In this document: positions 5,954-40,793 of the stretch, piece by piece
Layout of the letters: each line of letters opens with the position of its first letter
Position numbering within the stretch: position 1 is the stretch's first letter
DNA from: an uncultured bacterium
GTDB taxonomy: Bacteria > Fidelibacterota > Marinisomatia > Marinisomatales > UBA1611
Assembly (NCBI GenBank): GCA_964498175.1
Contig: CAZCHA010000003.1
Span: 1 to 40,793, forward strand
Length of the DNA: 40,793 nt
Direction: 5' to 3'
Made by a program: the position numbers and the translations under genes
The notes under the pieces: model-generated
The model's database searches: none
The model's input: only the letters and a program-made list of their open reading frames with translations
What the model was told of the DNA's origin: nothing

Positions 5954-6004
5954 GAATCAAATAAAAGCTCCTATACCTTTATGTTTGTTAAAAAATTAAA
6001 GGAG

Positions 6005-11899: not shown

Positions 11900-11909
11900 G
11901 AAAAATACA

Positions 11910-13184: not shown

Positions 13185-13204
13185 TTCAATAATATATTTA
13201 TAGC

Positions 13205-20417: not shown

Positions 20418-20710
20418 GCCATAAATTTTATTGTTTACCTAGGATTTCCAGTTTGAATTGAAAAGAAATCTATATTAGAACCCACTGTTTTTTCAACTTT
20501 AATGTAATATTTGTTCCATTATTAGAATCTATCCTTTCTCACGAACCATAAGTTTAACAAAAGAGGGAAAATATCAATAGAGTTTTCTCTCTTAAAAATA
20601 AAAATTGAATAATGCATAACCATTTCCAGTAGTTAAACCTTAATTTTGAGAATGAAAATGGGTGTATTCCCTTGAGCTAAAATATTATTCGTAAAATTTA
20701 TAGATTCCAC

Positions 20711-21364: not shown

Positions 21365-21368
21365 TTAA

Positions 21369-23691: not shown

Positions 23692-23700
23692 GGAAATGAT

Positions 23701-24842: not shown

Positions 24843-24886
24843 ATGAATAGGCATCAAGGTCGCTAAGAATCACGAAGATAATATAT

Positions 24887-25561: not shown

Positions 25562-25644
25562 ATGAAGAATCGTCATTATAATAAATTGATTCCTGTTATA
25601 GCAACTTCTCCAACGACTTAGAAGACCCTACTAAATAATTCATA

Positions 25645-27021: not shown

Positions 27022-28112
27022 ACAAGATCACATTTGTTATCCTTCCACTTTTGTCTATGGTCGTAGTTTTTACTTCTTGTGGAGAAAAAGATTTAGGGTC
27101 ACCTATTACTGAAGTGGACTCTGGAATTATTGATTCGCTTTTATCGGATTATGATTTGGTAGAAGGTCCAGGCGCTGCAGTTATGATCATTAAAGATGGA
27201 GATATTTTATTTTCTAAAGGATATGGATTGGCCAATTTGGAAGAGGGAATTTCCAATACAAATGAAACCAATTTCAGGTTGGCATCCATTACAAAACAAT
27301 TCACGGCAATGTGCATTATGATATTAATAAATCATGGTGAATTAGATTTTGAATCGACTTTGACAGATATTTTTTCAGCTTTCCCTCCTTATGGGAATAA
27401 TATAACCATTCGCCAAATGTTAAATCACACATCAGGACTGATGGATTACGAATCATTGATTCCTGATGATGCCTCAGAACAAGTGTCTGACTGGGACATA
27501 TACACCATGATGTTAGGCCTAAATTCAACCTATTTTACACCGGGAACACATTATCGCTACAGCAATACGGGCTACGCTTTATTAGCCATGATCGTTGAAG
27601 AAAAATCTGGACTCATTTTTTCGGAATTTTTAGAGAAAAATATTTTTTCACCCTTGGAGATGAATAATAGCGTTGCCCACCAAGAAGGAATCTCAAATAT
27701 CACAAACCGTGCTTATGGTTATTCTCAGGGAGATGATGGGTATAATCTGGATGATCAAAGTTTAACCAGCGCCGTATTGGGAGATGGCGGCATATATACA
27801 TCATTAAACGATATGTTCCGTTGGGATCAAAGTTTGTATACAGATAGCCTTGTTCCTTATGAAATATTAAATGAAGCATTTACTTCCGGAGAGTTATCCA
27901 ATGGTGAAAAAACAGGTTATGGATTTGGTTGGCGAATTGATTCTTATTTTTATCGGGACCGAGTTCATCATACAGGAAGCACACGTGGGTTTCGAAATGT
28001 GTTCATGCGATTTCCAGACCAACACATTAGTATTCTAATTCTCACAAACAGAAACTCTGGAAGTCCAATCAATATCGCAGAAAAAATTGCCGATTATCTT
28101 TTTGACGCTTAA
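27018..28112 (+). CDS. Beta-lactamase-fold serine hydrolase (class C / DD-peptidase-like family), lipoprotein
   Basis: Lipobox (VFTSCG). SxxK in LASITKQFTA. YxN in YSNTGYALL. A KTG-equivalent HTG in HHTGSTRGF. It overlaps the permease gene by 4 nt. Confidence 0.75.
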   Translation: MNKITFVILPLLSMVVVFTSCGEKDLGSPITEVDSGIIDSLLSDYDLVEGPGAAVMIIKDGDILFSKGYGLANLEEGISNTNETNFRLASITKQFTAMCIMILINHGELDFESTLTDIFSAFPPYGNNITIRQMLNHTSGLMDYESLIPDDASEQVSDWDIYTMMLGLNSTYFTPGTHYRYSNTGYALLAMIVEEKSGLIFSEFLEKNIFSPLEMNNSVAHQEGISNITNRAYGYSQGDDGYNLDDQSLTSAVLGDGGIYTSLNDMFRWDQSLYTDSLVPYEILNEAFTSGELSNGEKTGYGFGWRIDSYFYRDRVHHTGSTRGFRNVFMRFPDQHISILILTNRNSGSPINIAEKIADYLFDA

Positions 28113-28221
28113 CTAAATTCGATTCATGATCCAACTTTTACCCATTCTAATTTCTTCTCTTTTCCAATACTGCAGACAGATTTTGGTAAGAATCGGGAAA
28201 ATTTAATCATTCTATTATCAT

Positions 28222-29487
28222 TTAATATTCTAGTTTAAATCGATTCAAATCAGGGACGTAATCTTTTTCTCTAAATAATTCAAATTCGTAAATGACTCTC
28301 CCCAACTCTGATAAAAAAGGAATTGTTAATGAGTCATAATCATAGGTATTATCATTAATTATTCCATTTTTATTTCCGTAAACGACTGCGCTTAAGAAAA
28401 ATTCCACATTATTATCAAAATCTACTATATAGGCATTATCAATAAGAAAACCGTATGCAAGCCCTACTTTATTGAATGACCTAATACTGGGTGGAATTGT
28501 AGCATGATTATCCCCAAAAAGAAAAAATTTGCAATAACTATCATAATATTTTTGCCGATCGTAAACCGGTTTATTACTTTCTCGAGGTAATATGGACATA
28601 CATTTAAATAAATAATTTTTATCTCGTTCAGTCAGATTCATTTTTCTATTTTCAAATACCTCAGGAAAAATTGTATGAATCAAGAAAGTGTGCTTATCTT
28701 TCAAACTCATGTAGTTTTTCTTTGAAAATTCGAATGGTTTGGGAATCACTTCATCACCAACTCTATGAGATTCTCCAATAAAATAATTATCAAAGGGAGC
28801 ATCTAGGGTTAATTGACCGATCTCACTTTCCTGCTGATGAAGAATCCCATCTTGATTGAAAAATTTAATTTGGTTGGTCACCAAATTTTGTTTTTCGCTC
28901 AGTCCAATCCCAAGTCGATGACGAATTCTTGTACTCCTGTACCCAAGTTCCCAAAGCCGTTTATTGATATAATCCCTGCCAAGAAATTCATATAGTCTGT
29001 TAAAAGCATCATTATCTGATATAATGAAAAGTTTATGGATAAAATGCGCTATAGATGGATAACCAGAATGTGACGTCTCGTCCCGATTCATCCCAAGTAA
29101 ACCGATTGGATGATCTTCAATTTTCATGGGTGTATCCATATCTATTGAAGAGATGTTATTTAATTTTTCCAAAGCTAACACAGCAATCGGAAATTTTATG
29201 GCACTTGCCGGATAAAAATAGGTTCCATCTTTCATCCCAAATTGAAATGTCTCAAAAGTTGGCTCATTGAATTGATTGCGGTGTACCATGGTGTAAATTA
29301 CCTGAAACCTATAAAGTTCTGGAGCCTGAAGTATTGGTTGGAAACGGGAATTTACGTGCTTCAATATCTGTGAGAAATCGAGATTTTTCTCTTGTTCCAT
29401 TTCCATTTCATTGCCAATAACCTTGACAGAACATATGAGGGTAAATAATAAAAATAAATTGATGAATGAATTATTTTTTAATGACAT
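28222..29487 (-). CDS. Exported serine hydrolase, class A beta-lactamase-like fold
   Basis: Signal peptide. SxxK in YPASAIKFPIAVLA. SDN in FIISDNDAFN. A possible KTG-like KVG in FNKVGLAYG. Assigned by motif spacing only. Confidence 0.55.
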   Translation of the reverse strand: MSLKNNSFINLFLLFTLICSVKVIGNEMEMEQEKNLDFSQILKHVNSRFQPILQAPELYRFQVIYTMVHRNQFNEPTFETFQFGMKDGTYFYPASAIKFPIAVLALEKLNNISSIDMDTPMKIEDHPIGLLGMNRDETSHSGYPSIAHFIHKLFIISDNDAFNRLYEFLGRDYINKRLWELGYRSTRIRHRLGIGLSEKQNLVTNQIKFFNQDGILHQQESEIGQLTLDAPFDNYFIGESHRVGDEVIPKPFEFSKKNYMSLKDKHTFLIHTIFPEVFENRKMNLTERDKNYLFKCMSILPRESNKPVYDRQKYYDSYCKFFLFGDNHATIPPSIRSFNKVGLAYGFLIDNAYIVDFDNNVEFFLSAVVYGNKNGIINDNTYDYDSLTIPFLSELGRVIYEFELFREKDYVPDLNRFKLEY

Positions 29488-30871
29488 TCAGTATGCCCTG
29501 AGTCAATATTGTTACGATAATATTTGTGGTAACAGATAAGAAAATAAACCAAGTCCATGCCAAGCCTATTTGTTTGAGAAAAAATACAACTAAGAAACTG
29601 GATATCAGCCCTATAATCAAACTGATTTGAGAAAATGAGTAATCAAGCTTGCTCAATAAAAATAGGCCCAATAACCCACCATATGTAAATGATGCAATTT
29701 GAAGCCCCATAATTACAATAGCAGAATCTCCTTCATCAAATATAAGTGCAATACCAATGAGTACAGTCGCCCAAATACCACTAACAATCCGTGATTTTTT
29801 CAGATCAGCTTCACCCCTTAACCAATCCGTAATAGTGGATGAAGCCAAAGAATTGATGGATGAGCTCAGGGTAGACATTGCTGCAGACAGGATTCCTGCT
29901 AAAAGTAAACCTTTAACACCGACCGGCAAATGATCAATAATAAATGTCGGAAATTCCCTATCTTTAACCAGTTCTACTCCGCCAATGTAAATGTAGATCA
30001 AAGATCCAGCTAATAAAAAAATTCCAAATTGTAGAAAAACAAATAAGCCACTGCCGATCATAGCTTTTGTTCCGGATTCAATGTCTTTAGTCCCTAAAAC
30101 ACGTTGAACCATCATATAGTCAGCACCGTGGGATGAAAAAGACAAAAACAATCCACCAATTACCGCACTTATGAATAAATAGGGATCATGAATAAAATCA
30201 CCGCTGAAATTCAGGATCTGCAATTTCCCTGCTTCGCTCAATTGAATAAATGCATCCCCTGCTGATGGTGCCATATTAAACAGGATATAAAATATAGAAA
30301 TCAGGCCGCCGGCCAAATAAAGCACAAATTGAAAACTATCAATCCAAACGATAGTGCGGATACCTCCAAGGAGTGAATAAACCAGGGTTACAATTCCGAT
30401 CACCAATACTGCAACAGGCAATGACCATCCCGTTACAACCTGTACAATAACTGCCGTGGCAAGATATCGAATTCCATCGGCAAGAATCCGGGTAATGAGA
30501 AAAACAGCCGATGCAACTTTTTGTATCTCCGAACCAAATTTATTACCCAATACTTCATAAATGGATGTGACTCCTGATTGGAAATATTGTGGTAGTAAAA
30601 ACAGGCTTACCAAAATTCTTCCCAGGATGTAACCGATAGCTAATTGGAGGAATAACCAATTCCCGCGATAAGCAATTCCTGGAATGCTGATAAAGGTCAA
30701 TACAGATGTTTCTGTGGCTACGATGGAAAACATGGCTACAACCCATGGAATGTTTTTTCCACCAAGAAAATAATCAGAAGTGGATTTATTGAGCCTGCTC
30801 TGCCACCACCCGAATCCCATGAGTCCAATTAAAAATAAAAAAATTATTGATGTGTCTATCCAGTGTAACAT
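29471..30871 (-). CDS. Sodium:solute symporter (SSS/SSF family)
   Basis: 466 aa and polytopic. The N-terminal SDYFLGGKNIPWVVAMFSIVATETSVLTFISIPGIAY is a typical SSF opening. The downstream gene overlaps it by 17 nt. Confidence 0.8.
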   Translation of the reverse strand: MLHWIDTSIIFLFLIGLMGFGWWQSRLNKSTSDYFLGGKNIPWVVAMFSIVATETSVLTFISIPGIAYRGNWLFLQLAIGYILGRILVSLFLLPQYFQSGVTSIYEVLGNKFGSEIQKVASAVFLITRILADGIRYLATAVIVQVVTGWSLPVAVLVIGIVTLVYSLLGGIRTIVWIDSFQFVLYLAGGLISIFYILFNMAPSAGDAFIQLSEAGKLQILNFSGDFIHDPYLFISAVIGGLFLSFSSHGADYMMVQRVLGTKDIESGTKAMIGSGLFVFLQFGIFLLAGSLIYIYIGGVELVKDREFPTFIIDHLPVGVKGLLLAGILSAAMSTLSSSINSLASSTITDWLRGEADLKKSRIVSGIWATVLIGIALIFDEGDSAIVIMGLQIASFTYGGLLGLFLLSKLDYSFSQISLIIGLISSFLVVFFLKQIGLAWTWFIFLSVTTNIIVTILTQGILNVIKK

Positions 30872-30896
30872 ATTCTTATATGATTTTTTTTGGGAT

Positions 30897-33407
30897 CTAT
30901 TTTAATAGAATCATTCTGCCTGAATTTTTAATATCATCAGACATGAGCGAATAAATATAAACGCCTGATGAAACTTTTTCGCCATAAATATTTGTTCCAT
31001 CCCAGATTAAATAATATTCACCCGGTTCATAAATAGAGTTTGTCAGTTCTTTAATTTTATTTCCGAGAATATCAAATACTGTTAAAATTATGCGTCGAGA
31101 ATCACTGGTTTGGAATTTAATTTTTGTTGTGGGATTAAATGGGTTTGGGTAATTCCCAGTTAAGGTAATTCCAACTGGAAGCTCTTCTGTATTTATTGAT
31201 AATTCGAATTCGTCAACGATCCGGAAATCATCAATATATATTTTCCCAAATTGTGCTTGTCCCGCAGAATAGGTTAATTGAAAACTATCAAATCTCATTG
31301 TTCCATCTAATTGACCATCTCCAATCCATTCACCTGTTCCATCAAGATCCAAATCCCAATAAACTAATTTCCATCCAATCCAATCGATGATATACCAAGG
31401 GCTCACTTCGTGGTATTCTGCTCCAGTACTGGGAAGGTTGTCATCAACGGCAAACCTGAATTTGTTACCAGAGCCATCTCCAAAAACATAAGCCTGCATG
31501 GTTTTGCTATCGTTGAAGGTAATATTTCTCGGAGGGCCACCACTTAAATAAACTCGGATTAGCCAATCAGAAGAATTGAAATTCCAGCCATAATTAATTT
31601 CCATTGATTGAGTGCTGCCATACAACCCGTTAATTGTTTCCATATTCGGTAACATGGAGGTACTATCGGTAATAATTCCCGTCGTACTCCCAGAACTTTG
31701 CGGTCCCCACCAATTATCTTGAAAATTTTGTTCCATTGCATCAATTAGTGTGATATTCAAATCAATGTTTCCGGTATTAAAAGAATAAGAATGGTTGAAT
31801 GGAATCGAATTATTGAAGTTATCATTAAGTCCAGAATAGATTCTGGTAACATACACTTCATCAGGATGTAAACTATTAAATGGGAAAAAACACATAGAAC
31901 TTCGCCCTAAAACATTGTAGTGCACCCATTCACCTTCCACACCTGAATGATCTTGAAAACGTTCCAGAAAAAAGAATGATTCTACTAAAGAGTCTGGCCC
32001 AATTACTTCATCAAACTGTATATTGACAATGGGATTCAACTCGACATTTTGGGATACATTGGGCGGAATAACAGCAATAATTTCAGGCGGTGTCATATCT
32101 GCCGGGCCTGTGCGGAAAGTCAAAATAAAATCACCTCCTGGAACTCCATCTTTGTCACCATCTAAATAATGACCATAAACATCTCGTGCTTCTTCCAAAA
32201 TTGTTAACAAATAATCTGTTTCAAATTCTAATCCATCAGGTACAATTGTTAAGGTTCGAAAATTGTTTCCCCAAGTTTCGGTAAACTCAGTTGGCGGATT
32301 TAATGAAAGAGATTCATCCACTGTTTCCTGATCCATCGGACGAGAGAATTGGATTTCAATAATATCCCAAGCAGGGAAAAGAGAGTCACCCTGAATCGGA
32401 ATAGTTTCAACTATTACAGGTGCTTGGCTGGATAATAAAAACACATCGTGAAAGGTAATAAAAGAATCAGCTACTGTTACCATTGCAGTATCAGGGTAAT
32501 AATTATCTGCAGTTACTATGACTTCATAACTGGAATCTATGAGTCCATCAAACCAATAAAAACCATTTCTTAGTTCATTTACATCGGATGAATAATTATG
32601 AAAAAGTGATTCGAATGTATCCGTTGTATATGAAAGCTCTCCAAGAGAAATTGTTGCACCATTAATGGGATATTCTGATTCCAAATCATAAACCTGTCCT
32701 GCTATTTGCCCCACAAATGGTCTGCCAATTTCATGATATTTTAAAATGGACCAATAAAACAAATAAGCCAGCATTCTTTTGTATTCATCATTCATAACTA
32801 ATTGATTCTGTGCAGGATTTGTATGATGCCCTTCTTCACTGAGTTCTGACGGCATATTCGTATTCCGATTTACATATAGATAAGGGCCACCCGAATTTGC
32901 GCAATAATCGCTCCATGTGTAAAAACTGCAATCCCCCCAGGATCCTGTAGTTGCAATTCTCATTCCATCTGTTAAAATATCAATCATGAATGAGCTCATT
33001 TCCTCTCCACCAACAGGCGGATCGGGATTCCCATTATTTAATTCTCCCCATAACATTAAAGTTTTATTTGTATTTGAATTGGAACTAGCATCGCTATGGA
33101 TAGAATGATACCAGGATGCACTTACAGAATTAGCATAATTCGTTCGTTGATACAAGGAAACGGTCTGGTTGTCATTTGTTCTGGAAATGTAGACAGAATC
33201 TATATCAGTTTGATTCTCTAATATATCTTTTAAGTGCAGACCTACTCTCAGGACTTCCTCTGCTTCTGAATAGCCATTGATCCCCATATTTTCAGTTCGG
33301 CTGTGGCCAGGATCAATAAAAATATCCCAACCATTCAATCCTGTAACTTGTGACAGACACGTACTAGCCATGAAAACTATGATCAGTCTAATTAAAAATT
33401 GAATCAT
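30897..33407 (-). CDS. Secreted multidomain N-acetylmuramoyl-L-alanine amidase (Amidase_3 + CarboxypepD_reg-like + 2 Ig-like + uncharacterised domain + T9SS CTD)
   Basis: Signal peptide. Amidase_3 blocks are IFIDPGHS, YSEAEEVLRVGLHL, YISRTND..VSLYQRTNYAN and WYHSIHSDA. A CarboxypepD_reg-like segment reads GQIAGQVYDLESEYPINGATISL. Two SbsA/Big_5-like Ig domains span roughly aa 330-545. A conserved unknown domain spans roughly aa 550-733. The CTD is NYPNPFNPTTKIKF...GVYIYSL...RMILLK. Confidence 0.8.
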   Translation of the reverse strand: MIQFLIRLIIVFMASTCLSQVTGLNGWDIFIDPGHSRTENMGINGYSEAEEVLRVGLHLKDILENQTDIDSVYISRTNDNQTVSLYQRTNYANSVSASWYHSIHSDASSNSNTNKTLMLWGELNNGNPDPPVGGEEMSSFMIDILTDGMRIATTGSWGDCSFYTWSDYCANSGGPYLYVNRNTNMPSELSEEGHHTNPAQNQLVMNDEYKRMLAYLFYWSILKYHEIGRPFVGQIAGQVYDLESEYPINGATISLGELSYTTDTFESLFHNYSSDVNELRNGFYWFDGLIDSSYEVIVTADNYYPDTAMVTVADSFITFHDVFLLSSQAPVIVETIPIQGDSLFPAWDIIEIQFSRPMDQETVDESLSLNPPTEFTETWGNNFRTLTIVPDGLEFETDYLLTILEEARDVYGHYLDGDKDGVPGGDFILTFRTGPADMTPPEIIAVIPPNVSQNVELNPIVNIQFDEVIGPDSLVESFFFLERFQDHSGVEGEWVHYNVLGRSSMCFFPFNSLHPDEVYVTRIYSGLNDNFNNSIPFNHSYSFNTGNIDLNITLIDAMEQNFQDNWWGPQSSGSTTGIITDSTSMLPNMETINGLYGSTQSMEINYGWNFNSSDWLIRVYLSGGPPRNITFNDSKTMQAYVFGDGSGNKFRFAVDDNLPSTGAEYHEVSPWYIIDWIGWKLVYWDLDLDGTGEWIGDGQLDGTMRFDSFQLTYSAGQAQFGKIYIDDFRIVDEFELSINTEELPVGITLTGNYPNPFNPTTKIKFQTSDSRRIILTVFDILGNKIKELTNSIYEPGEYYLIWDGTNIYGEKVSSGVYIYSLMSDDIKNSGRMILLK

Positions 33408-34321
33408 TGAATGGTACCAATAATTAGTTCACCTTGAGGATATATTGTTATTGATATAAATTGGCCATCTGACGAAATAGATGGATTCATTTCAATTTGG
33501 TCATCTGTATTGGTTAATTGAGATATGGAATCAGAATCCTTATCCCATATAAAAATATCACCATCTATTAATTCATATCCATTATCTTTTAATCTCATGA
33601 ATAAAATATAATCTCCAGAAGGTGAAACGGATGGTGCATTCCCTACCCCAATTTCCTGATATTTTTCTGTTAATAGATCAAAAAAATATAGGCTACCACC
33701 ATATAGTTCGAATGAGATTAAATTAGTAGAATACGAAGTTGAAAGATTGAGAATATCCGATGGAAATTGTTTTATAAGCACAGCAGATCTAGGATTGTCT
33801 TTTTTAAATAATTTGTTCCCAATAGCATATACTATGGGGTAATTCCATTCTACATTTTTATTTTCTATCGAATAGGATTTCAATTTATTTTCAAGTAAAT
33901 AATGAAGTGAATTATTGCCAGACCAACCAACAGGTAGTATTTTTTTCATTGTAAAATCAATAATCGTATTCAGAACGACACCATTTTGATCAAGTAAAAT
34001 CAAAGAATTCATTCTTCTTTTTTGATTATATTTAGTTTTGAGAATTAACACGAACTTTCCATTTGGTGACCATTTCGCGCTAAATGCATTTAGATATCCT
34101 GTATTAAATAAAGTAGTTTCTACTGAAAGTGGATCAAAAATAAAACAACTAGACTGGTTATCATTTGATAAAAACAATTCAGTGTGGTTTGGAATCCACT
34201 CTGATCGCAAATTAGGCAGGTTCAATTCCATTTCTTCCCACTCTACAACCATATTAGTTTGGGAAAATAGTGCCACATTAAAAAACAGGTTAATTTTGAA
34301 AAACAAATTCATATTCATCAT
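33404..34321 (-). CDS. Exported TolB-like / PD40 beta-propeller repeat protein
   Basis: Signal peptide. Repeated PD40-like units are AKWSPNGKFVLIL, SVSPSGDYILFMR and MNPSISSDGQFISI. It overlaps the amidase start by 4 nt. Confidence 0.5.
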   Translation of the reverse strand: MMNMNLFFKINLFFNVALFSQTNMVVEWEEMELNLPNLRSEWIPNHTELFLSNDNQSSCFIFDPLSVETTLFNTGYLNAFSAKWSPNGKFVLILKTKYNQKRRMNSLILLDQNGVVLNTIIDFTMKKILPVGWSGNNSLHYLLENKLKSYSIENKNVEWNYPIVYAIGNKLFKKDNPRSAVLIKQFPSDILNLSTSYSTNLISFELYGGSLYFFDLLTEKYQEIGVGNAPSVSPSGDYILFMRLKDNGYELIDGDIFIWDKDSDSISQLTNTDDQIEMNPSISSDGQFISITIYPQGELIIGTIQ

Positions 34322-34414
34322 TGATAGAAATATTTAATATTTATGTTCGTAAAATATTTAGTGGAAGAGTCTTTAAATTAATATATTAATATTCTTTACA
34401 CAGGAACAAATTTA

Positions 34415-37400
34415 ATGATAAATATAAAAAAGGTGCTTCTCGTCTTTTCATTAACCCTTCCCTTCCTAAAAGCTAATCCATCTGATAGAGAATTTCGGGC
34501 GTCTTGGGTAATAACCTGGGAATATATTGGGTCATCCCAGAGTTCGGATGAAATAATGATCCGGATAGACGAGATAATGGATAATCATGCCGATGCCAAT
34601 ATGACCGCTGTACTTTTTCAGGTCAGGCAAAGCGGCACTGTTTACTACGAATCTTCCTATGAACCGTGGGGATACTATGCAGGGTATGGGAATCCTGGAA
34701 TCGATCCGCTTGAGTATGCCGTAAATGCAGCCCATGAAAGAGGCCTTGAACTGCACGCCTGGTTTAACGTGTTTCAAACATCCAGTATGCATGAAGGAGC
34801 TCCCGCTGAAGTCCACCCAGAATGGATCTGTCGGGACCAGAGTGGAAATCCCATGACATCTCACCGAAGCGTATCACCGGGTCTTGAAGATGTAAGACAG
34901 TATACAGTGAATGTTGCCATGGAAATTGTAAATAATTATGATATTGATGGACTTCATTTAGACTATGTCAGATGGAACGAATATTCCAGCAGCTCACAGA
35001 ATATTTTACCCCCTGGTCAGATTGAAGAGATCAGAATGATGGACGGAATTATTTCTGATGAAATGTTAAACGATCTGGAAAATTCCAGGACAGGAAGGTA
35101 TTTATATGATGTTGATCATCCATACTCATCCGGGATTCCGGATGATTATTCCAGCTGGGAGGATTGGTGGAGAGATGGAGTGACTGCATTTGTTAGTACC
35201 TTGCATGATTCTATTCAAACGGTAAAGCCCTTTGTAAGACTGTCATCCGCCGTATTGGGAAGATATAACTGGGGAGGGTGGCAGGGATATGGTACCGTCT
35301 ACCAGGACGCCGCATTGTGGATGAATGACGGTTATGTAGACCATTTAACACCGATGCACTACCACTGGACTTCACCCAACAGTTTTGTTCAAATGTTAAC
35401 AGGATCTAACCAGAGCTGGGCACCCTATATCCAAGATGGCATCCAGGCTGGAAGACTATTCTCTGCCGGACCTGGTTCTTATGTTTTGGCGGATCAAAAT
35501 TTATGGGATAACCATCCAGAAATCGTCGATGCTGTGCGAAATATTGACTTTGTCGATGGGTTCCAGTTTTTTAGTAATGGCACCTGGGAAGATTATCAAT
35601 ACTGGGAAGAAGCGGGTCACACCTTTTTTAAAGATAAAGCTATTGTCAGGAATATCACATACTACGCAACAAACACAGATCTTCCTCCAGACCCAAATAT
35701 TACCCTAGCTCAGATCAATGATCTTGAATACCAAGTTGATATTGCAACAAATTCGGCAGAGAGTTCCGTATGGACAGTGGTTAGCCTTTCCCCATCAGAC
35801 AGTTCAGATATGTCAAGCTCAATCCATTCCATACACTTTGGTTCAGATGATATATTGGTTCCCTTGACATTTGATGGACTGCAGCCTTATGAAGGTGCTT
35901 ACCATGTACATGTGCAAAATTTTAATCGCTTTTGGATTGAATCTGAAACAAGCGCTCAGGAGACAACAGGAGAAATCCCTTCTTACCCTCCAACCCTTAT
36001 AGATATCAACCTGGATACAGGTGATACTATAGCAGTAAACACTATGATAAGAATAGAATTCTCTAAGGAAATAGATCCATCATCATTCACATCATCATTT
36101 TCATTAAGCCCGGAACCGGACATAGTTGAAATTGATTGGTCCGATTACTGGGAAGATGAAGGAAGAGTGGTTTTAATATCGTTCCCTGATCTGCTGGAGT
36201 TTGATTTGGATTATTCACTAGATATATCTGCTGAGCTGACTGATATTATTGGTATCCATTTTGATGGCAACATGGATGGAGTTGCAGGGGATGGATTTTC
36301 TATTACATTTCATACAGAATCAACAGACCTCACCGGCCCACAGGTAACCGAATTTTATCCACCCACTGAATTTATTTTTGATACAGAAGGTGTGTTCAAT
36401 ATCACCTGGGACGAAATGGTAGACCCTGCTTCCATAAACCAGATGTCTGTTCAGTTTCAGTCTAGTGGACAGTACCTGACAACAGACCATATTGAAAATA
36501 CAATTGATGAAATAACCACAGTTTCTTTAAAGCCGTTTGCACCCCTATTGAATGATGCCAGCTGTACAGTCATTCTTAATGGAATTACAGACACGCTCGG
36601 CAATGCCATAGTCAACGCTCTTGAGTATTCTTATAACACTGTACCCTTCTATTATTCCAGTAAAACGTATATAGACCGGTTTAATTCAGGTGCAGGATGG
36701 TGGCAGCCCGATGGGAGTGGATCTACCACCGGGATCCTTGGCAGTGAAACCCAGTTTGGGTACAACAGTTCAGTGTTTGTTCCAGGGGTCAGTATGAACC
36801 CAAACGGAAGAAAATCCGGATCACTTCGGTATGGCTGGGATCCAGATGCTTCCAGTTCATTTTTAAGGCTTCATAATGCGGGTGACCCATCAGATGTTGC
36901 ATTGGATACATCAAACGTGCTCCAAGTATATGTGTATAGTGATGGCAGTGGAAACCAGTTCAGCATATCACTCTATGAATATTCAAATGGCTCTCTCACG
37001 GGAGATATTATTGAAGTTATGGCATGGGAAGAATTAAACTGGATAGGATGGAAATTGATCGAGTGGGATCTTTCAGATCCGGAACAGGTCGGGAACTGGC
37101 TTAGCAGTGACCAGACCATGGATGGGGATGCATATTTTTTAGATGGGTTTCTAATGAAACCGGGGCAGGATAGTGATATGAGCGGAAGGGTTTATTTTGA
37201 TGATCTGCGAATTGTTACCAAAGCTGAAGGAGATCCACCCATGAACTCTGCGCCAGTCATCACCGCTCTACCAGATACAATTATTGAGAATGGTGATAAT
37301 TTTTATTTTTATGTTGAGTTTTCAGATAATAATGAAAATGATATACACCAGATCACTGCTACCACGGATACATCTTCAGTCACAGCTACTATTTACGGAC

Positions 37401-37843
37401 ACACGTCTGGTTCCGTTGTGAATATCGAGTATGAACCCTTTATAGGTGAAACAAACATTACAGTAACCGTCAATGATTTTGGTCTTGGTGAGCTGGCAGA
37501 TACGGTTCAGTTCCTTTTAACCGTTCAGGGTGATTTATTCCTTTTTGATGAACCCATACCCGATAAATTTTCTCTGGGGAGCGCCTATCCTAACCCATTT
37601 AATCCCGTTGTAACTATTCCCTTTACGATTGAGAAACCAAGAGATGTATCAATCCATATCTTTGATATTTCGGGCAGGAAGATTAATACAATCCTTCAGA
37701 ACCAGTTTCTCTTCCCCGGTCTATACGATAAAAATTGGAATGGGTTCAATGACCAGGGGAGACAAGTATCTACAGGTACATATATTATTCAGATCGCTTC
37801 AGGAACTGAACTGCACCACCAAAAAATAACATTAATAAAATAA
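34415..37843 (+). CDS. Secreted multidomain GHL10-family (YngK / DigH-YddW-like) glycoside hydrolase with Ig-like domains, uncharacterised domain, cadherin-like segment and T9SS CTD
   Basis: Signal peptide. The GHL10 (former DUF187) blocks are FRASWVITWEY, NMTAVLFQVRQSGTVYYESSYEPW, DPLEYAVNAAHERGLELHAWFNVF, IDGLHLDYVRW and TPMHYHW. Two SbsA-like Ig domains span roughly aa 525-745. The shared unknown domain spans roughly aa 750-935. The CTD is AYPNPFNPVVTIPF...GTYIIQI...KITLIK. Confidence 0.75.
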   Translation: MINIKKVLLVFSLTLPFLKANPSDREFRASWVITWEYIGSSQSSDEIMIRIDEIMDNHADANMTAVLFQVRQSGTVYYESSYEPWGYYAGYGNPGIDPLEYAVNAAHERGLELHAWFNVFQTSSMHEGAPAEVHPEWICRDQSGNPMTSHRSVSPGLEDVRQYTVNVAMEIVNNYDIDGLHLDYVRWNEYSSSSQNILPPGQIEEIRMMDGIISDEMLNDLENSRTGRYLYDVDHPYSSGIPDDYSSWEDWWRDGVTAFVSTLHDSIQTVKPFVRLSSAVLGRYNWGGWQGYGTVYQDAALWMNDGYVDHLTPMHYHWTSPNSFVQMLTGSNQSWAPYIQDGIQAGRLFSAGPGSYVLADQNLWDNHPEIVDAVRNIDFVDGFQFFSNGTWEDYQYWEEAGHTFFKDKAIVRNITYYATNTDLPPDPNITLAQINDLEYQVDIATNSAESSVWTVVSLSPSDSSDMSSSIHSIHFGSDDILVPLTFDGLQPYEGAYHVHVQNFNRFWIESETSAQETTGEIPSYPPTLIDINLDTGDTIAVNTMIRIEFSKEIDPSSFTSSFSLSPEPDIVEIDWSDYWEDEGRVVLISFPDLLEFDLDYSLDISAELTDIIGIHFDGNMDGVAGDGFSITFHTESTDLTGPQVTEFYPPTEFIFDTEGVFNITWDEMVDPASINQMSVQFQSSGQYLTTDHIENTIDEITTVSLKPFAPLLNDASCTVILNGITDTLGNAIVNALEYSYNTVPFYYSSKTYIDRFNSGAGWWQPDGSGSTTGILGSETQFGYNSSVFVPGVSMNPNGRKSGSLRYGWDPDASSSFLRLHNAGDPSDVALDTSNVLQVYVYSDGSGNQFSISLYEYSNGSLTGDIIEVMAWEELNWIGWKLIEWDLSDPEQVGNWLSSDQTMDGDAYFLDGFLMKPGQDSDMSGRVYFDDLRIVTKAEGDPPMNSAPVITALPDTIIENGDNFYFYVEFSDNNENDIHQITATTDTSSVTATIYGHTSGSVVNIEYEPFIGETNITVTVNDFGLGELADTVQFLLTVQGDLFLFDEPIPDKFSLGSAYPNPFNPVVTIPFTIEKPRDVSIHIFDISGRKINTILQNQFLFPGLYDKNWNGFNDQGRQVSTGTYIIQIASGTELHHQKITLIK

Positions 37844-37847
37844 GTCT

Positions 37848-39119
37848 ATGAAAAAATACACAATCATCTTTTTATCCGTTTTACTATGGAAATGTACAGC
37901 ACCTGAAAACACCGTTACCATCCTGGACCCTGTCACTGCAGGCCAGGTAAACGAAGTGCGAACCGGGCTGGATGTTTTGTTAGAAGATCATTCTAATTAC
38001 CTGAAAGGAAAAACAATTGGCCTTGTAACAAATCATACAGGTATCTCAAGAAAGGGTGAAAAAAACTATAAACTCTTTGAAAATAATCCTGATATAACCC
38101 TGAAACGGATATTTGCACCAGAGCATGGATTCTATGGTGAAGCAAGCGCGGGAACTAAAGTTGAATATGACAACCAAAAAGACTCCGGGCCGGAAATCGT
38201 CTCCCTGTATGGAAAAACCAGGAAACCAACCGCTGAAATGCTTGAAGGAATTGACCTGGTCATTTACGATATACAGGATGTGGGGGCCCGTTTCTATACC
38301 TACATATCCACTCTTGGAATTGTCATGGAAGCAGCCGGCGAGAATGGTGTAAATGTAATGGTCCTTGACAGACCTAATCCCCTTGGGGGAGAGATCATTG
38401 AAGGGGCTATTCTGGATACGGCATTTAAATCATTTGTCGGATACTATCCCATTCCAACACGATACGCATTAACCGTTGGCGAACTGAGCCAGATGGCTGT
38501 AAAAGAAGGCTGGCTCTCATCTGTACCTCCGGAATTGATCGTAGTAACAATGGATGGCTGGAAACGATCCATGTTTTTTGATGATACAGATTTAACCTGG
38601 ATTCCTCCATCACCAAATATTCCAGATCTGAAGACTGCAATTATCTATCCCGGCATGTGTCTCTATGAAGCCACTAACGTTAGTGAAGGCAAAGGTACAA
38701 ATAAAGCTTTCAAACAAATAGGAGCTCCCTGGATGAATTATGACATTGCCAAGGAAATGAAAATTCAGGGTTTAAAAGGCGTGGACTTTAAATATGCAAA
38801 GTTTAAACCAAAAAACTTACCGGGCCGTGCAGAAAATCCAAAATTTGAAGGTTATTTCTGCGTAGGTCAGAAAATAGTTATAACTGATAAAAATGAATTC
38901 AGGTCTGTGGATACAGTAATCTATAGTTTAATGATTACGATTATGTTTTATATGGATAATTTCAGGTATGATTCAAAAAGAATTGGTTATTTATGGGGAA
39001 ACAATTTAATGAACAGATTTTTAAGGGGGGATTTAAAACCAAAAACCCTGTTTACACTATTAAAACAAGATCAAGAAAAATTTATTATTCAGTCTGCTCC
39101 CTATTATCTATATCAATAA
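37848..39119 (+). CDS. namZ: Second DUF1343 / NamZ-family exo-beta-N-acetylmuramidase, lipoprotein
   Basis: Lipobox-like LLWKCT. It has the same hallmark blocks as 10661..11899: TGLDVLLE..GKTIGLVTNHTGIS, FAPEHGFYG, IYDIQDVGARFYTYISTLG, VLDRPNP, SPNIPD and EATNVSEGKGT. By eye it is roughly 55-60% identical to the first copy. Confidence 0.8.
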   Translation: MKKYTIIFLSVLLWKCTAPENTVTILDPVTAGQVNEVRTGLDVLLEDHSNYLKGKTIGLVTNHTGISRKGEKNYKLFENNPDITLKRIFAPEHGFYGEASAGTKVEYDNQKDSGPEIVSLYGKTRKPTAEMLEGIDLVIYDIQDVGARFYTYISTLGIVMEAAGENGVNVMVLDRPNPLGGEIIEGAILDTAFKSFVGYYPIPTRYALTVGELSQMAVKEGWLSSVPPELIVVTMDGWKRSMFFDDTDLTWIPPSPNIPDLKTAIIYPGMCLYEATNVSEGKGTNKAFKQIGAPWMNYDIAKEMKIQGLKGVDFKYAKFKPKNLPGRAENPKFEGYFCVGQKIVITDKNEFRSVDTVIYSLMITIMFYMDNFRYDSKRIGYLWGNNLMNRFLRGDLKPKTLFTLLKQDQEKFIIQSAPYYLYQ

Positions 39120-39124
39120 TAAAT

Positions 39125-40209
39125 CTACTTCAGGTACAGTATTTTTTTACTATGAATGCTGTTTCCTGTTTGAATCATAACCAGGTAAGTGACACTTGCT
39201 ATTTGTTGGTTGTGTGCGGGGCTCCATTGGAATGAGTGATTGCCTTGAACAAAATTACCTTCTGCCAATGTCTGGATTGCTCTACCATTAATATCATACA
39301 GGCTGAGATTTGTGTGACCAGTTTTTGATATTTAAAATTTTATCTGAGTCTGAGGGTTAAAAGGATTGGGATAACTCTCTAGCTCAACCTGATCTGGAAG
39401 GATTGTTGGCACACCTTTTTCTAAATTGAGCCAGTAGGTGTTGATTGCTCCTGTTAGAGACTCTTCTGACTCAAAATCATCATAGCCCATGGCCCATACC
39501 ATGACTCCTCCAAGGTTCCTATTTTGAGAAAATTCACATTTATCTTTAATAGAAAGGGGGTTATCATATGTAGTGATTTGTTATGTATCTGTATCAATTA
39601 AATAAGGACATTTAGCAACATCATCCCAATGTGATGACCAGCGTGGCTACTCCAGCTACCATGAATATCATAGGTCATGGCGTTAAAATAATCTACATGT
39701 TAATTTAGACTGTTCATTTCATACCATTGTCCTGCCCAGTTTGAGGTAGGCAGTGCCATGGGCATGAGAAGTTCAGGGTTAGAATCATCTAAAACAGAAT
39801 CAAGTTCAGCTATAAATAATGAAAGATTATTCTTTTGCTCATTTGTTTGCGGATACTCCCTGTCAATATCGGCCCCATCATAACCATAAGAAATGAATTC
39901 AGACCGCAGCTCATAGGTAGACGTGGCGACCACGAATCCATCAGCAGTACCCCAACCACCCAGTGAAAGGAGAAATTTCCTGTTATTATTATGGATGTGA
40001 TCAGCAATAGATGCATCAAATGTACCGCTTGTGGCTTCGATACCACCTTGCTCATTCGGCCAGGCAAAGACATGATTGATGTGAGTAAAGGTTTCTAAAT
40101 CAAGATCCTGTGGCTGAAATTCATCCTGCATCCAGTACGGATAATAACCGACCACCCTCTGGGAATAAGCATAACCAATAAGTAAAAAGAAAAGTAAACG
40201 AAGTTTCAT
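39125..40209 (-). pseudogene. Decayed paralogue of the GH18-CTD gene at 4613..5953 (nonsense mutations, frameshift, internal deletions)
   Basis: ORF 39700..40209 aligns to the N-terminal half of the intact GH18 (RVVGYYPYWMQ, FLLSLGGWG, YGYDGADIDREYP, NWAGQWY). It lacks about 8 aa before the catalytic block and ends at an in-frame TAA. My translation downstream continues the homology in pieces. The first piece is HVDYFNAMTYDIHGSWSSHAGHH. After a frame change and a gap of about 90 aa comes WDDVAKCPYLIDTDT-TAA-QITTYDNPLSIKDKCEF..LGGVMVWAMGYDD...ESYPNPFNPQTQIKF-TAA-ISKTGHTNLSLYDINGRAI...ILYLK, with the final stop TAG at 39125..39127. Confidence 0.75.
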
Positions 40210-40220
40210 ATCTATAAACT

Positions 40221-40246
40221 AAAAAGGGGCCAGATGGCCCCTTTTT
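40221..40246 (-). terminator. Rho-independent terminator after the partial CTD-protein gene
   Basis: The sequence is AAAAAGGGGCC-AGAT-GGCCCCTTTTT. It has a perfect 6-bp G/C stem, a 4-nt loop, and flanking A and T tracts, so it could work in either direction. It lies 27 nt downstream of the stop at 40273. Confidence 0.75.
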
Positions 40247-40272
40247 AGTTTGAGAATACTAAGTATTCCTAT

Positions 40273-40793
40273 TTATTTGACAAATGTCATTCTGCGGTGC
40301 AATACCATTGACTTTGTCTTCAACTGGTAAATGTACATACCGGTTGCAACTTTCGTTCCAATCTGGTTATTTCCATCCCAGCGAACTACGTGCTGGCCTG
40401 ATCTCATTTCCTGATCGATCAGTGTTTTAACCAGCCTACCTTCAAGATTGTAAATATTTACGCTTACGTGCTCGCTAGCAGGTATCGTAAACTCAATCTT
40501 TGTGTTTGGATTGAACGGGTTTGGATAGTTCTGGTTAAGTACATACCCACTCGGAACTACACTCTTTGGGTCATCCGAGACGGATGAGTAATCCATTGTA
40601 TACAGATAGACTCCATTGCTGTAAAAATCAGCAAGGTAGAGATCACCATCAGCATCCCAGGCAGCTCCACGGGGACCATCAGTGACTCCTTCACCAGTGC
40701 CCTCCCAGTCATGCCAGTTACCGACTATAGCAATTGGCTCTTCTGTATCTGCTGGATCAAATAACCAATTTCCACCACCAGTAGGGCCTCCCC
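40273..40793 (-). CDS. C-terminal part of a secreted protein (beta-propeller/NHL-like segment + T9SS CTD); 5' end outside the window
   Basis: The track starts it at an internal Met (40596). My translation stays open to the window edge: GGPTGGGNWLFDPADTEEPIAIVGNWHDWEGTGEGVTDGPRGAAWDADGDLYLADFYSNGVYLYTMDYSS... The CTD is NYPNPFNPNTKIEFTIP...GMYIYQL...RMTFVK. Confidence 0.7.
   Translation of the reverse strand, partial: GGPTGGGNWLFDPADTEEPIAIVGNWHDWEGTGEGVTDGPRGAAWDADGDLYLADFYSNGVYLYTMDYSSVSDDPKSVVPSGYVLNQNYPNPFNPNTKIEFTIPASEHVSVNIYNLEGRLVKTLIDQEMRSGQHVVRWDGNNQIGTKVATGMYIYQLKTKSMVLHRRMTFVK

What the first reader, a model, noticed from the sequence alone, without database searches (positions are those of the whole stretch)
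31209..37219. An amidase and a GHL10 glycosidase share the same non-catalytic scaffold, including an unassigned ~185-aa domain
Seen: the Amidase_3 protein (30897..33407, minus strand) and the GHL10 protein (34415..37843, plus strand) have different catalytic heads. After the head, both carry two SbsA-like Ig domains, then a homologous domain (nt 31209..31760 and 36662..37219), then a T9SS CTD. Blocks shared by the two copies of the unknown domain are as follows. WWGPQSSGSTTGII pairs with WWQPDGSGSTTGIL. INYGW pairs with LRYGW. QAYVFGDGSGNKF pairs with QVYVYSDGSGNQF. IDWIGWKLVYWDL pairs with LNWIGWKLIEWDL. GKIYIDDFRIV pairs with GRVYFDDLRIV. Inference: this is a jelly-roll/CBM-like module that targets two sequentially acting enzymes (peptide stripping, then glycan cutting) to the same substrate. 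It is possibly a new peptidoglycan-binding module.
Basis: partly seen in the sequence, partly recalled or inferred. Interest (0 to 1): 0.62.

Follow-up and report, generated by a model that had tools for sequence, protein, structure and literature searches.

The report
Shared CBM-like module on murein-degrading enzymes
Two secreted cell-wall-degrading enzymes of a marine bacterium carry the same uncatalogued ~185-residue beta-sandwich domain, a distant cousin of known sugar-binding modules, which probably holds bacterial cell-wall fragments at the cell surface while they are broken down for food.

Summary
The amidase (30897..33407, -) and the GHL10 protein (34415..37843, +) share a homologous scaffold (31% identity over 417 aa, E=1e-41). 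The excised ~185-aa domain "X" aligns on its own at 34% identity (E=2e-27). X has no Pfam, NCBIfam or PDB sequence match.

AlphaFold models of both copies (pLDDT 96 and 93) are beta-jelly-rolls. Their best structural match is the spirochete flagellar sheath protein FlaA1, recently proposed as a new CBM family, followed by CBM11/30/27/16.

X defines a family of at least 313 clusters (50% identity) in FCB-group bacteria. About 85% of classifiable members are Amidase_3 or GHL10 enzymes with this same scaffold. In three of three informative cases, non-catalytic X proteins lie directly after a GHL10 | PD40 | Amidase_3 gene module.

The whole window is a peptidoglycan-catabolism island. A GHL10 enzyme, Cwp19, is a proven peptidoglycan lytic transglycosylase.

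So "CBM-like module shared by two murein enzymes" is supported. "Binds peptidoglycan" is the best inference but is untested. A minority of members, such as phosphatase fusions, argue against strict specificity.

I rate it a new variant of a known kind, of moderate interest.

The parts
30897..33407 (-). Amidase_3 - CarboxypepD_reg - Big_5 x2 - X - T9SS CTD protein, 836 aa
   Evidence: ORF; Pfam. N-terminus MIQFLIRLIIVFMASTCLSQ looks like a signal peptide (read from sequence).
32748..33323 (-). Amidase_3 catalytic head (aa 29-220)
   Evidence: PF01520 E=2.2e-19, 70.6 bits against a cut-off of 27.
31773..32708 (-). CarboxypepD_reg-like domain (aa 234-314) plus two Big_5 Ig-like domains (aa ~335-545)
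   Evidence: Pfam. The Big_5 part aligns with the GHL10 protein.
31209..31760 (-). Domain X, amidase copy (aa 550-733): FlaA-like/CBM11-like beta-jelly-roll
   Evidence: BLASTP E=2e-27 to the other copy. HMM aa 551-732. AF2 pLDDT 96.3, pTM 0.92. Foldseek top hit FlaA1 9cyn, E=2.7e-8.
30900..31151 (-). T9SS type A C-terminal sorting domain (aa 753-836)
   Evidence: PF18962 at 24.5 bits, just under the cut-off of 27. BLASTP E=1e-14 to the GHL10 protein's CTD, which passes TIGR04183.
33404..34321 (-). PD40/Tricorn_N-like beta-propeller protein, 305 aa; its stop overlaps the amidase start by 4 nt
   Evidence: Pfam. Immediately upstream of the Amidase_3-X gene in 63 of 82 related loci.
34415..37843 (+). 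GHL10 - mid - Big_5 x2 - X - insert - T9SS CTD protein, 1142 aa
   Evidence: ORF; Pfam. The head aligns to Cwp19 (5oq2) at E=1.4e-24.
34559..35422 (+). GHL10 TIM-barrel head (aa 49-336 by Pfam; the conserved region runs to aa ~400)
   Evidence: PF02638 E=6.1e-34. Motifs QVRQSGT, HAWFN, LHLDY and MHYHW are conserved in orthologues.
35987..36649 (+). Two Big_5 Ig-like domains (aa ~525-745)
   Evidence: Pfam; BLASTP.
36662..37219 (+). Domain X, GHL10 copy (aa 750-935)
   Evidence: AF2 pLDDT 92.8, pTM 0.89. Foldseek top hit FlaA1 9cyn, E=3.9e-7.
37220..37564 (+). Extra ~115-aa insert between X and the CTD (weak PKD-like), found only in a subclade of GHL10-X proteins
   Evidence: PKD_4 E=0.01. 'GHL_ins' was detected in 5 of the GHL10-X loci.
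37586..37840 (+). T9SS type A CTD (aa 1058-1142)
   Evidence: TIGR04183 at 29.4 bits against a cut-off of 23. PF18962 at 26.2 bits.
37848..39119 (+). NamZ exo-beta-N-acetylmuramidase, immediately downstream of the GHL10 gene
   Evidence: NamZ_N E=4.8e-81 and NamZ_C E=7.5e-34. The same order is kept in L004, L009, L010 and L017.

Best explanation
Domain X is a ~185-residue beta-jelly-roll of the cleft-type carbohydrate-binding-module fold. It is a distant relative of the spirochete FlaA sheath CBM and of CBM11. It forms its own family in FCB-group bacteria (Marinimicrobia/Fidelibacterota, KSB1, Calditrichota, Rhodothermia, Ignavibacteria).

Proposed role: X is the non-catalytic substrate-holding module of a conserved, T9SS-exported peptidoglycan-harvesting module. 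An Amidase_3 enzyme strips stem peptides. A GHL10 glycan-cleaving enzyme, of the Cwp19 type (muramidase or lytic transglycosylase), cuts the strands. Each is built as head, Ig-like spacers, X, CTD. In some lineages a head-less X 'adhesin' encoded next to them plays the part of a surface glycan-binding protein.

X is proposed to bind the glycan backbone of murein fragments. This would keep them at the cell surface while the heads act. The products would then pass through the neighbouring TonB-dependent receptor to NamZ, the GH18 enzymes, the LD- and DD-carboxypeptidases, the D-Ala-D-Ala dipeptidase and the DAP decarboxylase encoded in the same island.

Shown: the homology, the fold, the family's extent, the architectures and the synteny.
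Inferred: glycan binding, peptidoglycan as the ligand, and the order of enzyme action.
For: Homology of the two copies:
- E=2e-27 for X alone; E=1e-41 for the whole scaffold.

Fold:
- Two independent models, pLDDT 96.3 and 92.8.
- Both give FlaA1 (9cyn) as the top match, then CBM11/30/27/16/22/4.
- The X profile hits FlaA chains 10pl and 9pin at E=2e-6 over the whole domain.
- 9 of 39 members give sub-threshold Pfam FlaA hits, and 9 of 39 give CBM_11 hits.
- FlaA is described as a Ca-stabilised CBM whose groove binds flagellin O-glycans (PMC12889604).

Family and architectures:
- 313 clusters at E<=1e-3 in 1.84 billion representatives.
- Of 88 classifiable representatives, 58 have Amidase_3 heads, 16 GHL10 and 1 GH18.

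Synteny:
- PD40 then Amidase_3-X in 63 of 82 loci. A GHL10 gene lies nearby in 29, with X detected in 17 or more.
- Head-less X proteins P0199, P0252 and P0194 each lie directly after GHL10-CTD | PD40 | Amidase_3-CTD.

Peptidoglycan context:
- The window holds NamZ x2, GH18 x3, Amidase_2, AmiA-like, S66, S13, M15, DAP decarboxylase, a NagB-like protein, a TonB receptor and a PorV-like protein.
- GHL10 precedent: Cwp19 cleaves peptidoglycan (PMC6016235). The window's head aligns to it at E=1.4e-24.
- The cultured phylum member Fidelibacter multiformis lives on exogenous muropeptides (PMC11652737).
- Neither enzyme carries any known wall-binding module.
Against: - No binding data exist. The ligand is inferred from association only.
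- The conserved signature (W17, P20, SGST, W59, R69, GDGS, E118, W122, W127, GW, W135, D177) is the same in X copies on non-murein proteins. These include a tandem purple-acid-phosphatase pair beside an S1-P1 nuclease, an X-Flg_new protein and a CBM48/CBM20/X25-bearing protein. All sit in unrelated gene contexts.
- Almost all members are T9SS cargo, so 'cell-surface protein' is as common a denominator as 'murein enzyme'.
- The nearest characterised relatives bind non-murein glycans.
- The sequence link to FlaA is weak. hhalign against a single FlaA sequence gives only 19% probability, and the window's own copies do not hit PF04620 at E<=10.
- I could not inspect model coordinates, so I do not know whether the invariant aromatics line a groove or pack the core.
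Confidence: 0.55

Rival explanations
1. X is a lectin-like module for a non-murein glycan. Most plausibly this is the producer's own surface glycan (anionic LPS, O-glycan or capsule), or a generic particle polysaccharide. In this reading X retains T9SS cargo of any kind on the cell surface or on marine particles, much as FlaA2 holds on to flagellin O-glycans.
For: - Nearly every member carries a T9SS CTD or another surface-display tag such as a dockerin.
- The same conserved signature occurs on phosphatase, Flg_new and starch-CBM proteins.
- The closest relatives bind O-glycans or beta-glucans.
Against: - About 85% of classifiable members are murein-enzyme fusions.
- The head-less X proteins are encoded inside the GHL10 | PD40 | amidase module in 3 of 3 informative cases.
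- Other T9SS cargo in the same window (two GH18, one Amidase_2) lack X. X is therefore not a general T9SS cargo feature.
Confidence: 0.22
2. X is a protein-protein or structural module rather than a glycan binder. It might dock the co-operonic PD40 beta-propeller or another module component. Or it might oligomerise the enzymes into a surface array, echoing the way FlaA assembles into a sheath.
For: - PD40 is encoded immediately upstream of Amidase_3-X in 63 of 82 loci, with a 4-nt overlap in the window.
- FlaA proteins make extensive protein contacts within the sheath.
- Jelly-rolls such as MAM domains and gingipain cleaved-adhesin domains also appear among the fold matches.
Against: - GHL10-X genes have no PD40 partner of their own.
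- PD40 also precedes amidase paralogues that carry module Y instead of X (L002, L041). PD40 therefore tracks the amidase head, not X.
- The many invariant Trp residues plus Arg, Asp and Glu are more typical of sugar sites.
Confidence: 0.13
3. X is mainly a secretion or folding aid: a stalk domain that presents the CTD to the T9SS, or spaces the head away from the outer membrane. It would have no ligand.
For: In the amidase class X sits about 20 residues before the CTD.
Against: - In a whole clade X is N-terminal and far from the CTD (P0199, P0204, P0252, P0194).
- In the window's GHL10 protein another domain separates X from the CTD.
- Some proteins carry two X copies (P0150, P0242).
- Other CTD proteins in the window lack X.
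- Strong conservation of surface-type residues across at least five phylum-level lineages is unexpected for a mere spacer.
Confidence: 0.05

Closest known systems
Spirochete flagellar sheath proteins FlaA1/FlaA2 (Pfam PF04620; PDB 9cyn, 10pl, 9pin, 10lk), proposed in 2026 as a new CBM family (PMC12889604)
   Same: - Best structural match of both X models (E=2.7e-8 and 3.9e-7, TM ~0.6).
- Best sequence-profile match (E=2e-6 over profile positions 2-179 of 181).
- Shared motifs: GxG...D, GW and the C-terminal FDD/FDE strand.
- Same size: a single-domain jelly-roll of about 180-200 aa.
   Different: - Identity is 11-14% in the Foldseek alignments to FlaA1, and 20% in the hhalign alignment to a FlaA chain.
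- hhalign probability is only 19% against one FlaA sequence.
- The window copies miss PF04620 entirely.
- X has its own signature (WW-P--SGSTTG, W59, R69, E118, W122, W127, W135) that is absent from FlaA.
- X is a module inside secreted enzymes of FCB bacteria, not a free-standing periplasmic filament sheath subunit.
CBM11 of Clostridium thermocellum Lic26A-Cel5E (PF03425; PDB 1v0a, 2lro, 6r31) and related cleft-type beta-sandwich CBMs (CBM30, 27, 16, 22, 4)
   Same: - Jelly-roll fold, with TM 0.58-0.61 normalised to the query (0.62-0.65 to the target) and E about 1e-5.
- 9 of 39 X members give sub-threshold CBM_11 hits.
- It is an appended, non-catalytic module on glycan-active enzymes.
   Different: - Profile E is only 0.04.
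- The CBM11 ligands are beta-1,3-1,4 and beta-1,4 glucans.
- No X-bearing enzyme seen here is a glucanase.
Cwp19 of Clostridioides difficile (GHL10 head plus three CWB2 wall-binding repeats; PMC6016235, PMC5765458)
   Same: Same design logic: a GHL10 peptidoglycan-cleaving head joined to a non-catalytic module that ties it to a cell-wall polymer. The heads are homologous (E=1.4e-24).
   Different: - Cwp19 is an autolysin anchored to its own wall by CWB2.
- The window protein is a T9SS-exported enzyme in a catabolic island, and it carries X instead of CWB2.
- The Arg132 that was conjectured to be catalytic in Cwp19 is Gln, His or Ala in the X-bearing clade.
Polysaccharide utilisation loci of Bacteroidota (surface enzyme with CBM, surface glycan-binding proteins, TonB-dependent transporter)
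   Same: - Surface-exposed enzymes with a CBM-like module.
- A head-less binding protein encoded alongside.
- A TonB-dependent receptor, periplasmic exo-enzymes and transporters in one island.
   Different: - No SusD homologue was found in the window.
- Display is by T9SS CTD, not by lipidation.
- The presumed substrate is peptidoglycan.
Established peptidoglycan-binding modules (LysM/CBM50, SPOR, AMIN, SH3b, PG_binding_1)
   Same: X occupies the position such modules occupy in other amidases, where they provide non-catalytic targeting.
   Different: No sequence or fold relationship. None of these families is detected in either protein. All of them are small alpha/beta or beta-barrel folds, not 185-aa jelly-rolls.

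Membership tests
FlaA-type CBM (PF04620; PMC12889604) | Bent jelly-roll beta-sandwich with a concave groove | tested here: met
   Both AF2 models are all-beta sandwiches. FlaA1 (9cyn) is the top Foldseek hit: TM 0.60-0.64, E=2.7e-8 and 3.9e-7. The groove geometry itself could not be inspected.
FlaA-type CBM (PF04620; PMC12889604) | Sequence membership: passes the PF04620 model | tested here: not met
   The window copies give no hit at E<=10. 9 of 39 family members give sub-threshold hits, best 7.4e-6. The X profile against FlaA chains gives E=2e-6. hhalign probability is 19%. X is a remote relative, not a member.
FlaA-type CBM (PF04620; PMC12889604) | Calcium-dependent fold stabilisation | not testable with these tools
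   Acidic positions D7, D95, D158 and D177 are conserved, but no coordinates or metal prediction were available.
FlaA-type CBM (PF04620; PMC12889604) | Free-standing sheath subunit of spirochete periplasmic flagella that binds flagellin O-glycans | tested here: not met
   X is an internal module of T9SS-exported enzymes in FCB bacteria.
CBM11 (PF03425) | Passes the PF03425 model | tested here: not met
   No hit for the window copies. 9 of 39 members give sub-threshold hits. Profile against 1v0a gives E=0.04.
CBM11 (PF03425) | Binds beta-1,3-1,4 / beta-1,4 glucans in a concave cleft lined by tyrosines | not testable with these tools
   Needs binding assays or coordinates. No X-bearing protein has a glucanase head.
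Carbohydrate-binding module in the general CAZy sense | Discretely folded non-catalytic module appended to carbohydrate-active enzymes | tested here: met
   X is an autonomous, high-confidence fold. It is appended to Amidase_3, GHL10 and GH18 heads.
Carbohydrate-binding module in the general CAZy sense | Demonstrated carbohydrate binding | not testable with these tools
   Requires expression and binding assays.
T9SS type A cargo | C-terminal sorting domain (PF18962 / TIGR04183) plus an N-terminal signal peptide | tested here: met
   GHL10 protein: TIGR04183 at 29.4 bits against a cut-off of 23. Amidase: PF18962 at 24.5 bits, just below the cut-off of 27, but homologous to the former at E=1e-14. 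Orthologues pass. A PorV-like gene lies in the window. The N-termini are hydrophobic.
GHL10 peptidoglycan-cleaving enzymes (Cwp19 type) | PF02638 TIM-barrel head homologous to Cwp19 | tested here: met
   PF02638 E=6.1e-34. Match to 5oq2 at E=1.4e-24.
GHL10 peptidoglycan-cleaving enzymes (Cwp19 type) | Lytic transglycosylase or muramidase activity on peptidoglycan | not testable with these tools
   Activity is shown only for Cwp19. Another GHL10-annotated protein is reported, by its paper's title, to act on starch (PMC9967864, listed; paper not read). The family is therefore not uniform.
Known peptidoglycan-binding modules (LysM, SPOR, AMIN, SH3b, PG_binding_1) | Match to the corresponding Pfam models | tested here: not met
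   None is listed for either protein at E<=0.1, nor for X at E<=10.

The most novel reading that the evidence does not exclude
X is the founding member of a new peptidoglycan-glycan-binding CBM family. It would be the first jelly-roll-type murein binder, and the shared 'handle' of a widespread T9SS-based peptidoglycan-harvesting module in Marinimicrobia and other FCB bacteria. Its kinship with FlaA would then support the idea, raised for FlaA1, that FlaA-type grooves can engage the cell wall.
Probability: 0.3. Interest if true: 0.72.

Novelty: new variant of a known kind. Interest (0 to 1): 0.55.

Why it matters
Peptidoglycan is a large and poorly understood pool of marine organic matter. Marinimicrobia (SAR406, Fidelibacterota) are abundant in the ocean, and their one described isolate lives on other bacteria's wall fragments.

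A conserved surface module of amidase, GHL10 and an X 'handle', set inside a complete catabolic island, would give a concrete and testable mechanism for how these bacteria capture and dismantle murein outside the cell.

For carbohydrate-enzyme research, X is a well-defined candidate new CBM family: at least 313 clusters, a high-confidence fold and a clear signature. It would also extend the newly proposed FlaA-type CBM class beyond spirochetes.

Cultured carriers such as Roseithermus sacchariphilus make experiments feasible; MAGs assigned to Caldithrix abyssi and Melioribacter roseus also carry it.

Tried and rejected
- The word-index homologue searches returned only N-terminally truncated or frameshift-split pieces. 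They were useless for reading architectures. I used the exhaustive search and local classification instead.
- Alignment A3 was too diverse for the genome scan. The tighter A4 was seeded from amidase-type X, so the 80 loci over-represent the amidase class.
- PDB sequence searches with single X copies found nothing. The C-terminal 379 aa of the GHL10 protein also found nothing.
- hhalign of the X profile against one FlaA sequence gave only 19% probability. I therefore do not claim FlaA family membership.
- The viral fold library gave only generic CenC-like CBMs in tail fibres.
- The 93-bp divergent intergenic region (34322..34414) has only AT-rich, chance-level inverted repeats.
- Expression: a few short contigs, 93-96% identical, from one oligo-dT library touch the amidase gene and the GHL10/NamZ junction. 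That is too little to call, and it cannot be told apart from DNA carry-over.
- Literature searches found no description of this domain or locus type.
- Rejected: chance similarity; X as a general T9SS cargo feature, because other CTD proteins in the window lack it; X as a known wall-binding module.

Full report
**Observation.**
Pfam gives these architectures:
- Minus-strand protein, 836 aa: Amidase_3 (aa 29-220), a CarboxypepD_reg-like domain (aa 234-314), two Big_5 Ig-like stretches, and a T9SS sorting domain.
- Plus-strand protein, 1142 aa: GHL10 (aa 49-336), two Big_5 stretches, and a sorting domain.

BLASTP aligns the post-head regions at 31% identity over 417 columns (E=1e-41). The CTDs align separately at E=1e-14. 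A family HMM finds X at aa 551-732 and 750-936 and nowhere else in the six-frame translation of the window.

X has no Pfam hit at E<=10, no NCBIfam hit and no PDB sequence hit. The only corrections concern the GHL10 protein: it has an unassigned 'mid' segment (aa ~400-520), and a ~115-aa weakly PKD-like insert between X and its CTD.

**Fold and nearest relatives.**
A 67-sequence alignment gave an AlphaFold model of the amidase copy with pLDDT 96.3 and pTM 0.92. It is an all-beta sandwich. The GHL10 copy, modelled separately, gave pLDDT 92.8 and pTM 0.89 with the same strand order.

Foldseek against the PDB puts the Leptospira flagellar sheath protein FlaA1 (9cyn) first for both models (E=2.7e-8 and 3.9e-7, TM about 0.6). 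Cleft-type CBMs follow: CBM11, 30, 27, 16, 22 and 4. Further down come MAM domains, the N-terminal domain of chondroitinase ABC and a gingipain cleaved-adhesin domain.

Sequence-level evidence:
- An X-only profile (A3) hits FlaA chains 10pl and 9pin at E=2e-6 across the whole domain. CBM11 scores only E=0.04.
- 9 of 39 family members give sub-threshold Pfam hits to FlaA, and 9 of 39 to CBM_11.
- hhalign against a single FlaA sequence gives only 19% probability.

I therefore call X a remote relative of FlaA, not a member of its family.

A 2026 preprint describes FlaA as a new CBM family. It is a bent, calcium-stabilised jelly-roll. The FlaA2 groove binds flagellin O-glycans, and the authors speculate that the exposed FlaA1 groove may contact peptidoglycan (PMC12889604).

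**The family.**
An exhaustive HMM search of 1.84 billion representatives found 313 clusters at E<=1e-3, of which 78 score E<=1e-30.

I classified the listed representatives locally against the window's domains, and sent the unrecognised ones to Pfam:

| Class | Representatives |
|---|---|
| Amidase_3 - (CPD_reg) - Big_5 x2 - X - CTD | 58 |
| GHL10 - mid - Big_5 x2 - X - (insert) - CTD | 16 |
| GH18 | 1 |
| Other architectures | about 13 |
| Fragments | 49 |

The other architectures are these:
- N-terminal X followed by Cleaved_Adhesin, a dockerin or Flg_new repeats.
- A purple-acid-phosphatase/Metallophos - Big_5 x2 - X - CTD protein.
- A protein bearing CBM48, CBM20 and X25.

In a neighbour-joining tree the GHL10-borne X domains form essentially one clade, apart from the amidase-borne ones. 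The N-terminal types form another clade. This points to an old split followed by vertical descent, not repeated shuffling (no bootstrap support was computed).

The conserved signature is common to all classes. It comprises D7, F9, W17, P20, S23-G24-S25-T26, G28, W59, R69, G94-D95-G96-S97, R102, E118, W122, W127, G129-W130, W135, W145, D158 and D177. Only three columns are class-specific.

**Distribution and synteny.**
A scan of one genome per GTDB species, with patterns taken from amidase-type X, confirmed 216 stretches. They come from Marinimicrobia/Neomarinimicrobiota/Fidelibacterota, KSB1, Calditrichota (a MAG labelled Caldithrix abyssi), Rhodothermia (including the complete genome of Roseithermus sacchariphilus), a MAG labelled Melioribacter roseus, and other Bacteroidota. 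The window itself recurs in marine and seawater metagenomes.

Across 82 loci:
- A PD40/Tricorn_N-like beta-propeller gene lies immediately upstream of Amidase_3-X in 63.
- A GHL10 gene lies nearby in 29, with X detected in 17 or more.
- TonB-receptor and PorV-like genes recur.
- Close relatives (L004, L009, L010, L017) keep the window's order: GH18 | NamZ | GHL10-X | PD40 | Ami-X | SSF ... S66 | S13 | GATase | TonB receptor.

The short hits from the word-index search are frameshift-split pieces of these same genes.

**Are the non-murein architectures a counter-example?**
Partly.
- Inside the module: the head-less X proteins P0199, P0252 (Cleaved_Adhesin type) and P0194 (dockerin type) each lie directly after PKD | GHL10-CTD | PD40 | Amidase_3-CTD. 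That is three of three informative cases; the contig for P0204 is cut at the gene start. In those lineages the GHL10 gene lacks X. X is therefore either fused to GHL10 or encoded beside it, a Rosetta-stone-like pattern that ties X to this module.
- Outside the module: the phosphatase pair, an X-Flg_new protein and the starch-CBM protein sit in unrelated neighbourhoods. GH18-X has a GHL10 gene about 8 kb away.

**Context in the window.**
The 40.8-kb window is a peptidoglycan-catabolism island. It encodes:
- a NagB-like protein;
- three GH18 genes: two complete ones with CTDs and one truncated fragment;
- an AmiA-like amidase and an Amidase_2 with a CTD;
- DAP decarboxylase;
- two NamZ exo-muramidases;
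- a PorV-like protein, a 1126-aa unknown protein and a TonB receptor;
- a C26/GATase, an S13 DD-carboxypeptidase, an S66 LD-carboxypeptidase and an M15 D-Ala-D-Ala dipeptidase;
- permeases, two beta-lactamase-fold proteins and an SSF transporter.

The GHL10 head aligns to Cwp19 (5oq2) at E=1.4e-24. Cwp19 is a proven peptidoglycan lytic transglycosylase (PMC6016235). The head's motifs are conserved among X-bearing orthologues. The only described isolate of this phylum, Fidelibacter multiformis, depends on exogenous muropeptides (PMC11652737).

**Mechanism proposed.**
Shown:
- the homology, fold, architectures and synteny;
- the T9SS tags.

Inferred:
- Both enzymes are exported by the T9SS and displayed on, or released from, the surface.
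- X binds the glycan backbone of murein fragments.
- The amidase removes stem peptides and GHL10 cuts the strands.
- Oligomers enter through the TonB receptor and are finished by NamZ, GH18 and the peptidases.

I put this at 0.55. The rivals are:

| Rival explanation | Confidence |
|---|---|
| Lectin for a non-murein or self-surface glycan | 0.22 |
| Protein-protein or structural module | 0.13 |
| Secretion stalk with no ligand | 0.05 |

PD40 also precedes amidase paralogues that carry a different C-terminal module. PD40 therefore tracks the amidase head rather than X.

**Limits.**
- The locus set is biased toward the amidase class.
- The tree has no support values.
- Expression evidence is negligible.
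- No paper describing this domain or locus type was found, but the library is incomplete.

**Verdict.**
This is a real, conserved and uncatalogued CBM-like domain family, distantly related to FlaA and CBM11. It is used mainly as the shared non-catalytic module of a peptidoglycan-degrading enzyme pair. Peptidoglycan as the ligand is plausible but unproven. I rate it a new variant of a known kind, with interest 0.55.

Noticed in passing
window 33404..34321 (-): A PD40/Tricorn_N-like beta-propeller gene overlaps the amidase start by 4 nt. It is the immediate upstream partner of Amidase_3 in 63 of 82 loci. This includes amidase paralogues that carry module Y instead of X, so it is a conserved operon partner of the amidase head. 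Its role is unknown; it might handle stem peptides or regulate the amidase.
   Followed up: partly
window 9339..10361 (+), aa ~375-715 of the 815-aa GH18 protein (8217..10664): A second unassigned shared module, 'Y', of about 340 aa with an fn3-like start. It has no Pfam hit at E<=10 and no PDB sequence hit. In other genomes it is fused to Amidase_3 heads (L002, L041; probably L059, where no head was assigned) and to a GHL10 head (L043), at E=1e-56 to 1e-66. So the murein heads are combined with at least two alternative C-terminal modules.
   Followed up: partly
window 13205..20417 (-): A TonB-dependent receptor (17604..20417), a 1126-aa protein with no Pfam family (14227..17607) and a PorV-like protein (13205..14230) form a triplet. 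TonB-receptor and PorV-like genes recur near X loci (L066, L070, L081; also L044 and L076 with the 1126-aa homologue). No SusD homologue was seen in the window.
   Followed up: no
window 1..40793: The whole window reads as a peptidoglycan-catabolism island. It holds a NagB-like protein, three GH18 genes (one a truncated fragment), AmiA-like, Amidase_2, DAP decarboxylase, NamZ x2, C26/GATase, S13, S66, M15, two Gate-domain proteins, an amino-acid permease, two beta-lactamase-fold proteins and an SSF transporter.
   Followed up: partly
window 35612..35974 and 37220..37564 (+): The GHL10 protein has two further unassigned segments. The 'mid' domain is conserved in GHL10-X orthologues. The ~115-aa insert between X and the CTD gives only a weak PKD_4 hit (E=0.01) and occurs only in a subclade: 5 of the GHL10-X loci.
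   Followed up: no
window 34415..35680 (+); alignment: In the X-bearing GHL10 clade, the residue equivalent to Cwp19 Arg132 (conjectured catalytic in PMC5765458) is Gln, His or Ala. The Asp of the conserved 'LHLDY' motif is kept. The window's own X copy on GHL10 also departs from near-invariant positions: G94 to S, R102 to S, S120 to M and D126 to N.
   Followed up: partly
L006 (PBRL01000070.1) and L017 (NZXM01000032.1): Contigs labelled 'Chloroflexota bacterium' and 'Methanobacteriota archaeon' carry this Marinimicrobia-type locus. X is 75% and 72% identical, and in L017 the gene order is the same as in the window. These are probably mis-binned contigs in those MAGs.
   Followed up: no
window 2275..4611 (-): A 778-aa protein whose central part matches glucosamine-6-phosphate deaminase-like models (PRK02122, E=1e-56). 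It is far longer than NagB and has no Pfam hit at E<=0.001.
   Followed up: no
P0150 (1200 aa) and P0242 (1880 aa): Some amidase-class proteins carry two X copies in tandem arrays with Big_5 domains. Some extend C-terminally with many Flg_new/InlB B-repeat domains before the CTD.
   Followed up: no
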